This document shows, piece after piece, positions 35,935 through 41,976 of a stretch of 64,000 nucleotides of DNA. Source of the stretch: Candidatus Freyarchaeum deiterrae (GTDB taxonomy: Archaea; Asgardarchaeota; Jordiarchaeia; Jordiarchaeales; Jordiarchaeaceae); the NCBI GenBank assembly GCA_037305845.1, contig CP147778.1, positions 2,208,001 to 2,272,000 on the forward strand. The letters run 5' to 3'. Positions within the stretch are counted from its first letter, which is position 1. Each line of letters starts with the position of its first letter. The position numbers and the translations under genes were made by a program. Below the pieces are notes generated by a model. It searched no databases and was not told where the DNA came from. It saw only the letters and a list, made by a program, of their open reading frames with translations.

Positions 35935-36656
35935 TTGGCAAAAGATAATTTTTTGACAGAAAAGAAAAAACTTTTAGAGAACCTGAAGCGCACCGGCTTT
36001 GTTACCAGAGAAAACGTAATGCAAGCGTTCCTCAGAGTTCCCCGAGAAGAATTCGTGCCAGAGAACCTCAGAGACAAAGCTTACGTTGACCACCCCCTAC
36101 CAATTCCAGGCGGTCAAACAATATCTGCGCCACGCGAAAAAGCATATCCCTGCTTTTCGGGCGAAACATGTGCGTTCTAATGTGCGACGTACTAGAATTG
36201 GAAAAGGGCATGAAAGTACTAGAAGTAGGCGGAGGTTCAGGTTATCACGCAGCGCTATGCGCTGAGATAATAGCACCCACAGGTTCCAAAAGCGAGGGCC
36301 ATGTCTACACCATAGAACGAATACCCGCGCTAGTCGATTTTGCCAACGAAAATCTGAAAAAAACTGGATACATTGACAGAGTAACCATCTACACAGGAGA
36401 CGGCTCGGAGGGATTCCCCGATATGGCTCCCTATGACGCCATACTTGTGACAGCTGCAGCGCCCAAGGTGCCCCAACCACTCATTGACCAATTAGCCGTG
36501 GGAGGAAAATTAGCCATTCCTCTCGGGAGCCTTTTCATGTATCAGGAATTGATAGTAGTTGAAAAATTAGAGGGCGGTCAGACGAAGAGGCACAGGTTCG
36601 GTGGTGTGGCCTTCGTTCCGCTATTGGGTCGTTGGGGGTATCGTAATAGTTGGTAA
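35935..36656 (+). CDS. pcm: Protein-L-isoaspartate O-methyltransferase, join(35935..36133,36166..36656), 229 aa after removal of a 32-nt intron
   Basis: Exon 1 ends VPREEF..AY.D.PLPI..GQTISAP; exon 2 continues (H)MC...VLEVG.GSGY.AA, GDGS.G, APYD.I.V.AA and FVPL. Confidence 0.9.
36134..36165 (+). other. Candidate BHB (tRNA-type) intron in pcm mRNA
   Basis: Central helix CGCC/GGCG, 3-nt bulges AC|G and AA|A, inner stem CGAAAA..GCA/TGC-TTTTCG, outer TG/CA; excision yields CCA-CAC-ATG. Confidence 0.85.
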
Positions 36657-38781: not shown

Positions 38782-41055
<2,274 letters not shown>

Positions 41056-41289: not shown

Positions 41290-41976
41290 TTATTTTGCCC
41301 CGCCGGTTTTCTGCCACATGGGTTTCTCACTTATGTGTAGTGTTGTTTGGGGTTTAACAATAACTATTCCTTCGGGGGTTGTCTTCACTACTCCAAAGAG
41401 GATGACTCTACTTAAAACTCTGATACGAACTACGTCCCCCTGTGTTACAGGGTATCCTACCAGTTTTCTTTTTACGAAGCGTTCGAAGCGTTCTTCTACA
41501 GGGAACCTTACGCTGACAGGAGCTAAGATGACCGATTCGGCTTGTTTTTCGCTGGCTTTCTTAATTACCACCTTATCCCCTAGGCTTACGTTAGCGTTGT
41601 GCCTCAGGTATTCGTCCATCCGGACTAGTCCCTTGTCTTTGTCTTCAGGGTAGGCTGGCCAAGCAATGGCGGATGTAGCCTTTTCACCCTTTATTTCAAC
41701 GACGTCATCTTTTTGGACGCCTAGTTTTTCCATTGCGGCGTTATCTACTCGTACTATGAATCTTCCGGCGTCGCGCTTCTGCGCTTCTTCTACACGCAGT
41801 TCGATAATAGTCTCTTTCCCCTTCTCAAAAAATGCTTCTTCCGAAGAGATGCTTTCGTCATATACGTAATTTGGGTCAATCGGCTTGCCGCAATGTGGAC
41901 AGAATACGGCACCACTTGGAACTTGGGTGCCACAGTAAGAGCACCACCCCTTTTTGGAAATATTTCTTCCACTCAT
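41290..41976 (-). CDS. Zinc-ribbon fused to a stand-alone Cdc48 N-domain (recent partial duplicate)
   Basis: CSYCG...FCPHCG followed by 162 codons nearly identical to the adjacent Cdc48 N-domain; no AAA module. Confidence 0.85.
   Translation of the reverse strand: MSGRNISKKGWCSYCGTQVPSGAVFCPHCGKPIDPNYVYDESISSEEAFFEKGKETIIELRVEEAQKRDAGRFIVRVDNAAMEKLGVQKDDVVEIKGEKATSAIAWPAYPEDKDKGLVRMDEYLRHNANVSLGDKVVIKKASEKQAESVILAPVSVRFPVEERFERFVKRKLVGYPVTQGDVVRIRVLSRVILFGVVKTTPEGIVIVKPQTTLHISEKPMWQKTGGAK

What the first reader, a model, noticed from the sequence alone, without database searches (positions are those of the whole stretch)
36126..36170. Candidate bulge-helix-bulge intron inside the mRNA of the protein-repair gene pcm
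Seen in sequence: pcm is split into two frames in the middle of its conserved GQTISAP-HM motif by 32 extra nt (36134-36165). The region folds into a complete hBHBh' motif: outer TG(36126-27)/CA(36167-68), central 4-bp helix CGCC(36128-31)/GGCG(36160-63), 3-nt bulges ACG(36132-34) and AAA(36164-66), and an inner hairpin CGAAAA-A-GCA-loop-TGC-TTTTCG. Cutting after the second nucleotide of each bulge (the EndA rule) joins CCA C|AC ATG = Pro-His-Met and gives a 229-aa PCM. Unspliced RNA stops at 36180. Established: EndA and RtcB splice BHB introns from archaeal tRNA and rRNA; the well-documented mRNA case is cbf5 in Crenarchaeota. Inference: this is a BHB mRNA intron in a different gene, in a probable Asgard archaeon. 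Because it is frameshifting and sits in a protein-damage repair gene, it may be a splicing-controlled switch, conceptually like XBP1/HAC1 unconventional splicing.
Basis: partly seen in the sequence, partly recalled or inferred. Interest (0 to 1): 0.95.

Follow-up and report, generated by a model that had tools for sequence, protein, structure and literature searches.

The report
tRNA-type intron splitting Asgard pcm gene
The only protein-repair gene pcm of this Asgard archaeon is broken by a 32-base insert shaped like a tRNA intron, and about 20 other protein genes in the same genome carry such inserts, so this lineage very probably splices messenger RNA routinely, something in print for the coding region of only one archaeal gene (cbf5).

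Summary
Confirmed. The genome is the complete Freyarchaeum deiterrae genome. pcm is split at its His codon by 32 nt (36134-36165) that form a bulge-helix-bulge (BHB); EndA-rule cuts give an intact 229-aa enzyme. The same site holds a BHB insert of 21-34 nt in 46 genomes (17 Asgard, 28 Bathyarchaeia-like, 1 'Kor4'). Insert sequences diverge but pairing is kept, and an exon wobble base covaries with an intron base. EndA (two subunits) and RtcB are present. A genome scan, plus leads from earlier notes, gave 21 protein genes with such inserts, including cbf5 at exactly the crenarchaeal intron position. Splicing is inferred (about 0.93), not shown: no spliced sequence was found in the DNA and protein collections. 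The 'XBP1-like switch' is unsupported, since host genes are functionally mixed and presence is patchy. In print I found only cbf5 (coding) and one Haloferax 5' UTR intron. This scan had already noted the pcm intron on other DNA (Bathyarchaeia, Asgard, DPANN) and several of the other genes in this genome.

The parts
35935..36133 (+). pcm exon 1 (TTG start; 66 codons plus the first base of His67)
   Evidence: NCBIfam PRK13942 profile 5-63
36134..36165 (+). 32-nt BHB intron (predicted EndA cuts after 36133 and after 36165)
36166..36656 (+). pcm exon 2 (rest of His67, Met68 to stop; 162 further codons)
   Evidence: PRK13942 profile 65-214
36128..36131 (+). exon strand of the central 4-bp helix (from the Ala and Pro codons)
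   Evidence: 183 of 184 cells paired in 46 introns; G-C to A-U change in 6
36132..36134 (+). 5' 3-nt bulge (AC^G)
   Evidence: ACA in 38 of 46 relatives
36135..36159 (+). intron inner hairpin
   Evidence: first 6 bp paired in 266 of 276 cells against 160 +/- 6 in column shuffles
36160..36163 (+). intron strand of the central helix (GGCG)
36164..36166 (+). 3' 3-nt bulge (AA^A)
36126..36168 (+). whole hBHBh' motif including the weak outer exon helix (TG/CA)
36178..36180 (+). premature stop reached if the RNA is not spliced (81-aa product)

Best explanation
The insert is a tRNA-type intron in the pcm pre-mRNA. The transcript folds into a BHB; the cell's two-subunit EndA cuts after the second base of each bulge; RtcB joins the exons and rebuilds the His codon of the conserved TISAPHM motif; the 32-nt intron is released, probably circularised. 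It is one of about 22 such introns in about 21 protein genes of this genome. They are most likely removed as a routine by-product of the very active tRNA-intron machinery of this lineage, and they persist because they sit in near-invariant motifs where only exact loss is tolerated. Shown: sequence, structure potential, covariation, intact exons, enzyme genes. Inferred: cleavage and ligation in vivo (about 0.93) and the absence of a dedicated regulatory role (the 0.75 covers both steps).
For: (1) 46 distinct pcm introns at one site, 21-34 nt, placed by protein homology without looking at structure; central helix 183/184 paired, inner 6 bp 266/276 against 160 +/- 6; outside the genus the intron cores are only 14-48% alike. 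(2) An exon wobble base (Ala GCG/GCA) covaries with an intron base in 46 of 46 (40 G-C, 6 A-U). Intron-bearing genes use 3 codon pairs at this site; 38 intronless genes use 20. (3) 45 of 46 unspliced RNAs cannot give a full protein: 39 shift frame, 6 of 7 in-frame ones hold a stop. (4) Both exons are intact, with about twice as many synonymous as non-synonymous codon differences within the genus; it is the only pcm in the genome. (5) Two EndA genes and RtcB are present; EndA was also found in 12 of 13 other genomes tested. (6) Internal positive control: this genome's cbf5 carries a 32-nt BHB after base 1 of the catalytic Asp codon, the site of the experimentally spliced crenarchaeal intron (PMC2738675). 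(7) 92-95% of tRNA genes in this and two related genomes have introns (PMC11291895).
Against: No RNA or protein evidence. Two metagenome scans for spliced junctions (pcm, alba) found nothing (these are DNA assemblies, so the blank is weak). All 15 closest protein clusters are truncated exon-2 calls of 158-167 aa. The outer helix is weak (second pair kept in 23 of 46). One relative ('Kor4', L223) has an in-frame 27-nt insert without a stop, and no EndA was found in that 1.2-Mb assembly. No Asgard intron, not even a tRNA one, has been shown spliced in a cell (bioRxiv 10.64898/2026.10.13.758758).
Confidence: 0.75

Rival explanations
1. The intron is spliced as above, but splicing is regulated and acts as an on/off switch for pcm, or for a set of genes tied to tRNA-processing capacity (XBP1/HAC1-like; the first reader's idea).
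For: Unspliced RNA is nearly always unproductive (45 of 46). The pcm intron is kept across two phyla. Many host genes act on tRNA or translation (cbf5, kae1, tyrS, gatE, selD, queE, rps26e). A negative-regulator role was proposed for the cbf5 intron (PMC2738675).
Against: Hosts also include porA, leuC, hdrC, nadE, fbp, ahcY, hypD and mvhD, with no shared stress theme. Presence is patchy: 38 intronless pcm genes, and HD, hdrC and ahcY introns absent from a genome of the same genus. No conserved intron sequence that could bind a regulator. No dedicated nuclease is needed. The tRNA enrichment may reflect that I recognise conserved genes most easily.
Confidence: 0.18
2. No RNA splicing: the ribosome crosses the insert by programmed frameshifting or hopping (T4 gene 60 type).
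For: A hairpin and a nearby stop follow the junction, as in bypass signals (established knowledge).
Against: Insert lengths fall in all three frames (7, 18 and 21 of 46), so no single frameshift fits. Matched take-off and landing codons occur in 2 of 46 for His and 0 of 46 for Pro. The conserved feature is the exact EndA geometry.
Confidence: 0.02
3. A split gene: exon 1 and exon 2 are made as two polypeptides (re-initiation at ATG 36168) that assemble into the enzyme.
For: Exon 2 begins with ATG two bases after the junction, and databases list it as a 158-167 aa protein.
Against: The conserved His would be lost and the TISAPHM motif cut. Exon-1 tails vary from 2 to 56 residues. It does not explain exon-intron covariation, and most other inserts in this genome are not followed by a start codon.
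Confidence: 0.03
4. Assembly error or a pseudogene broken by a hairpin insertion.
For: A metagenome-derived genome; BHB-like shapes are common by chance.
Against: 46 independent assemblies share the site; the genome was curated and its topology checked with long reads (PMC11291895); the exons have no stops and change mostly at synonymous sites.
Confidence: 0.01

Closest known systems
BHB intron in cbf5 pre-mRNA of Desulfurococcales and Sulfolobales (Yokobori 2009, PMC2738675)
   Same: Short intron (16-44 nt there, 21-34 nt here) inside a coding region, BHB boundaries, splitting a conserved active-site codon after its first base, patchy gain and loss. This genome has that very cbf5 intron site occupied too.
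   Different: Different gene (pcm) and different phyla (Asgard, Bathyarchaeia). Here about 21 genes of one genome are affected rather than one. Splicing is shown for cbf5 and only inferred here.
Archaeal tRNA and rRNA BHB introns (EndA plus RtcB), abundant in Freyarchaeia and Atabeyarchaeia tRNAs (PMC11291895; bioRxiv 10.64898/2026.10.13.758758)
   Same: Same hBHBh' geometry, size range and presumed enzymes; same intron-rich lineages.
   Different: The host is an mRNA, so removal must restore a reading frame. Neither paper mentions introns in protein-coding genes.
Haloferax HVO_1309 5' UTR intron (PMC7714728)
   Same: An EndA-processed BHB intron in an mRNA.
   Different: It lies outside the coding region, so the protein sequence does not depend on it.
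Eukaryotic XBP1/HAC1 unconventional splicing (from my own knowledge)
   Same: Short frame-changing mRNA intron removed by an endonuclease and a tRNA ligase (RtcB in animals).
   Different: Cut by the stress sensor IRE1 at two stem-loops, not by EndA at a BHB; regulation is shown there and untested here.

Membership tests
Archaeal BHB (EndA-type) intron | 4-bp central helix formed between exon and intron | tested here: met
   CGCC/GGCG; 183 of 184 cells paired in 46 introns, with a compensatory change
Archaeal BHB (EndA-type) intron | Two 3-nt bulges on opposite strands, cut after the second base | tested here: met
   Homology-defined boundaries equal the predicted cuts, with a unique register in this genome
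Archaeal BHB (EndA-type) intron | Flanking intron helix | tested here: met
   266 of 276 cells paired against 160 +/- 6 shuffled; all 6 pairs show changes on both sides
Archaeal BHB (EndA-type) intron | Flanking exon-exon helix (strict hBHBh' form) | tested here: inconclusive
   2 bp here; first pair kept in 46 of 46, second in 23 of 46, so many relatives are of the relaxed form
Archaeal BHB (EndA-type) intron | EndA and RtcB encoded by the host | tested here: met
   Two PF01974 genes, one with the catalytic Tyr-His-Lys read by eye, and one RtcB
Archaeal BHB (EndA-type) intron | Cleavage and ligation of the RNA (spliced product, circular intron) | not testable with these tools
   No transcript data; spliced-junction scans of DNA assemblies were blank
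Protein-L-isoaspartate O-methyltransferase (PCM/PIMT) | Full-length match to the family model, with the TISAPHM motif and SAM-binding motif I | tested here: met
   Exons match PRK13942 at 5-63 and 65-214; an intronless homolog aligns without a gap across the motif to PDB 1jg1
XBP1/HAC1-type regulated splicing switch | Condition-dependent splicing by a dedicated sensor nuclease | not testable with these tools
   No expression data; the motif fits housekeeping EndA
Programmed ribosomal bypass or frameshift | Matched take-off and landing codons, or a constant frame offset | tested here: not met
   2 of 46 matched; all three frame offsets occur
Self-splicing group I/II intron or mobile repeat | Catalytic RNA core, or further copies in the genome | tested here: not met
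   32 nt only; no credible Rfam hit; no second copy within 6 mismatches

The most novel reading that the evidence does not exclude
Freyarchaeia/Jordarchaeia, and to a lesser extent other Asgard archaea and Bathyarchaeia, routinely splice tens of protein-coding mRNAs with EndA and RtcB, including essential genes (tyrS, kae1, gatE, rps26e, cbf5, alba), and are still gaining such introns. Intron-containing protein genes would then be a normal feature of the prokaryotic relatives of eukaryotes, and many of their genes are now annotated as fragments.
Probability: 0.85. Interest if true: 0.92.

Novelty: new variant of a known kind. Interest (0 to 1): 0.86.

Why it matters
Reviews and a 2020 EndA study name cbf5 as the only archaeal gene with a BHB intron in its coding region (PMC7714728). 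Here one Asgard genome has about 21 such genes, and the pcm intron spans two phyla. If spliced, mRNA splicing is an ordinary step of gene expression in relatives of the eukaryote ancestor, and it gives a plausible antecedent for RtcB-dependent mRNA splicing. It also means that metabolic and phylogenomic inventories of these lineages rest on truncated or missing genes: all 15 closest pcm records are half-proteins. Metatranscriptomes from the source soil exist (PMC11291895), so the claim can be tested directly by searching for junction reads.

Tried and rejected
Folding z-score of the region: uninformative (z = -0.13). Shape-only genome scan against a Markov-shuffled genome: almost no enrichment, so shape alone cannot call introns. 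A relaxed shape-plus-frame-switch scan was at background; only tight filters separated signal from shifted-junction controls (10 against 2 and 2 at -7 kcal/mol), and those filters were tuned after seeing hits, so I relied on homology for validation. The first energy script timed out. Searches for spliced junctions of pcm and alba in metagenome contigs: none. Protein search for a full-length Freyarchaeum PCM: none. Rfam and promoter scans: nothing relevant. Tree of pcm: 4 changes with long branches in, 2 without; one clade of all intron-bearing genes is not rejected (p-AU 0.52), so single origin versus repeated gain is unresolved. Low-score 'introns' from the blind placement (G034, G013, G074 pcm; G014, G011, G017 tyrS; leuC paralogs) were rejected as protein indels or noise: no BHB, and full-length open frames. 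Literature searches found no report of pcm or Asgard mRNA introns; subscription papers are not covered.

Full report
Source. The window lies in a single-contig genome of 3,576,204 bp. That is the length of the complete Freyarchaeia genome (Ca. Freyarchaeum deiterrae) in PMC11291895, and two relatives match the Atabeyarchaeia lengths given there. That paper reports introns in 92-95% of the tRNA genes and nothing on protein genes.

Observation. pcm lies in two frames (35935-36180 and 36168-36656). Removing 36134-36165 gives a 229-aa protein. The two halves match the PCM model PRK13942 at positions 5-63 and 65-214, so the split His is the only residue missing. The insert and its flanks form a central helix CGCC/GGCG, two 3-nt bulges, an inner hairpin and a 2-bp outer helix. 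The BHB fold is within 0.4 kcal/mol of the best fold, and the central helix pairs with probability 0.94. No other excision register gives the same product. The fold is not unusually stable and such shapes are common by chance, so the argument rests on the coincidence with the frameshift (about 6e-7 per position) and on relatives.

Relatives. I placed inserts by protein homology alone and then read off the pairing. The same site is occupied in 17 Asgard genomes of five families: Freyarchaeum, other Jordarchaeia, Atabeyarchaeia, Baldrarchaeia and one unnamed family. A pattern scan of GTDB contigs added 28 Bathyarchaeia-like genomes and 'Kor4'. It is absent from 38 sampled pcm genes, including most other Asgard families. 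Among the best-listed matches of 400 Asgard genomes, short exon-1 frames occurred only in the intron-bearing families, apart from one contig-edge hit. The 46 introns are 21-34 nt long. The central helix is paired in 183 of 184 cells, and the Ala wobble base covaries with its intron partner (40 G-C, 6 A-U). The first six inner pairs hold in 266 of 276 cells against 160 +/- 6 after shuffling columns (one search gives the same on ten sequences), although the cores are only 14-48% alike outside the genus. These genomes are related, so the shuffle figures are not probabilities. In 45 of 46 the unspliced RNA shifts frame or meets a stop. The exons are intact and change mostly at synonymous sites. 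This excludes an assembly error and a decaying gene.

Machinery. The genome encodes two EndA-family proteins and RtcB, which fits the two-subunit enzyme reported for most Asgard genomes. EndA was found in 12 of 13 other genomes tested.

Not a single case. A genome-wide scan for BHB shapes that join two coding frames returned pcm and, among others, cbf5, split after the first base of the catalytic Asp codon. That is the position of the experimentally spliced crenarchaeal intron (PMC2738675) and serves as a positive control. Further cases: kae1, tyrS, gatE, nadE, selD, porA, alba, a PHP/EndoQ-like gene, leuC, hdrC, a PflX-like radical SAM gene, an HD hydrolase, a flavin oxidoreductase and ahcY (two introns). 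For cbf5, kae1, tyrS, gatE, nadE and selD the halves abut at consecutive model positions. Intronless orthologs or paralogs align across the junctions. Same-site BHB introns with changed sequence occur in relatives for cbf5, kae1, tyrS, gatE, nadE, selD, porA, alba, the PHP gene, leuC and pflX. The HD, hdrC and first ahcY introns are missing from another genome of the same genus, which suggests recent gain or loss. Following earlier notes of this scan I also checked mvhD, hypD, fbp, queE (one insert) and rps26e, and each restores a recognisable motif; these five and the second ahcY insert were not tested in relatives. The total is 21 genes and 22 inserts, a lower bound because in-frame stopless inserts and very short exons escape the scan. 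Some gene names rest on motif recognition from my own knowledge.

Mechanism. Most likely EndA cuts after 36133 and 36165 and RtcB joins the exons, as for tRNA and cbf5 introns; this step is inferred. The inserts sit in near-invariant motifs (PCM TISAPHM, the Cbf5 Asp, the TyrRS HIGH region, HypD CGTH), where only exact loss is viable, and that can explain persistence without a regulatory benefit. Ribosomal hopping or frameshifting fails on codon matching and on the spread of frames. A two-piece protein would lose the His. A regulated switch remains possible, but nothing here shows it, and the mixed host genes and patchy presence argue against a repair-specific switch.

History. On the pcm tree the intron state changes 4 times, or 2 times without long branches, and a single clade of intron-bearing genes is not rejected. 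One old origin with losses or transfer and repeated gain at a favoured site are both open.

What is known. Nine literature searches found cbf5 as the only coding-region case and one Haloferax 5' UTR intron. The 2009 paper notes that introns in other genes had been predicted but not confirmed. A 2026 preprint on Asgard introns covers tRNAs only and states that none of its newly found inserts has been shown spliced in an Asgard cell. Earlier unchecked notes of this scan describe the pcm intron in other genomes; they are leads, not support, and I tested the Bathyarchaeia and Asgard claims myself.

Verdict. The feature is real. It is very probably a spliced BHB intron, a new variant of the cbf5 kind by gene, lineage and scale. 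The missing proof is a spliced read or an in vitro cut. Interest 0.86.

Noticed in passing
G000:C1, loci L054-L068 (cbf5 1483446-1483415 -, kae1 2203742-2203715 -, tyrS 1873166-1873137 -, gatE 1472189-1472160 -, nadE 1619887-1619919 +, selD 2458220-2458249 +, porA 1589381-1589354 -, alba 1125569-1125598 +): BHB inserts of 28-33 nt split conserved motifs; all have same-site BHB inserts in relatives.
   Followed up: yes
G000:C1 (PHP/EndoQ-like 2285374-2285405 +, leuC 2636190-2636158 -, pflX-like 1863944-1863974 +, hdrC 1152345-1152383 +, HD hydrolase 987065-987095 +, flavin oxidoreductase 2494680-2494713 +, ahcY 1877066-1877011 - and 1876927-1876899 -): More BHB inserts. HD, hdrC and the first ahcY insert are absent from G002 of the same genus; ahcY has two inserts around a 28-codon exon.
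   Followed up: partly
G000:C1 (mvhD 1145015-1144985 -, hypD 2580004-2580031 +, fbp 1055908-1055980 +, queE 2125928-2125908 -, rps26e 2278919-2278949 +): Inserts flagged by earlier notes; excision restores the expected motifs. The fbp one is 73 nt with a 3-of-4 central helix.
   Followed up: partly
L087, L088 and L090 (kae1 of G009, G006, G011): The kae1 intron shrinks to 14 nt in two Jordarchaeia and also occurs (28 nt) in G011, a 1.42-Mb complete genome of another family (probably Odinarchaeum, from memory of its size) whose pcm and cbf5 lack introns.
   Followed up: partly
L128 and L129 (gatE of the two Atabeyarchaeia): A 41-nt insert near the gatE site; read by eye, in G021 it forms a clean BHB 5 nt upstream of the Freyarchaeum site, suggesting independent gain or sliding.
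   Followed up: no
L223 ('Kor4', JAVCBX010000056.1): The only pcm intron that is in frame and has no stop (27 nt); no EndA match was found in that 1.2-Mb assembly.
   Followed up: partly
ARAGORN misses it and calls only 17 genes in the whole genome.
   Followed up: no
window 41290-41976 (-): A zinc-ribbon gene fused to a near copy of the CDC48 N-domain, directly upstream of cdc48 (38782-41016).
   Followed up: no
P0001-P0015: All public protein clusters at 75% identity or more to exon 2 are 158-167 aa, so databases hold only the second half of PCM for this genus.
   Followed up: yes
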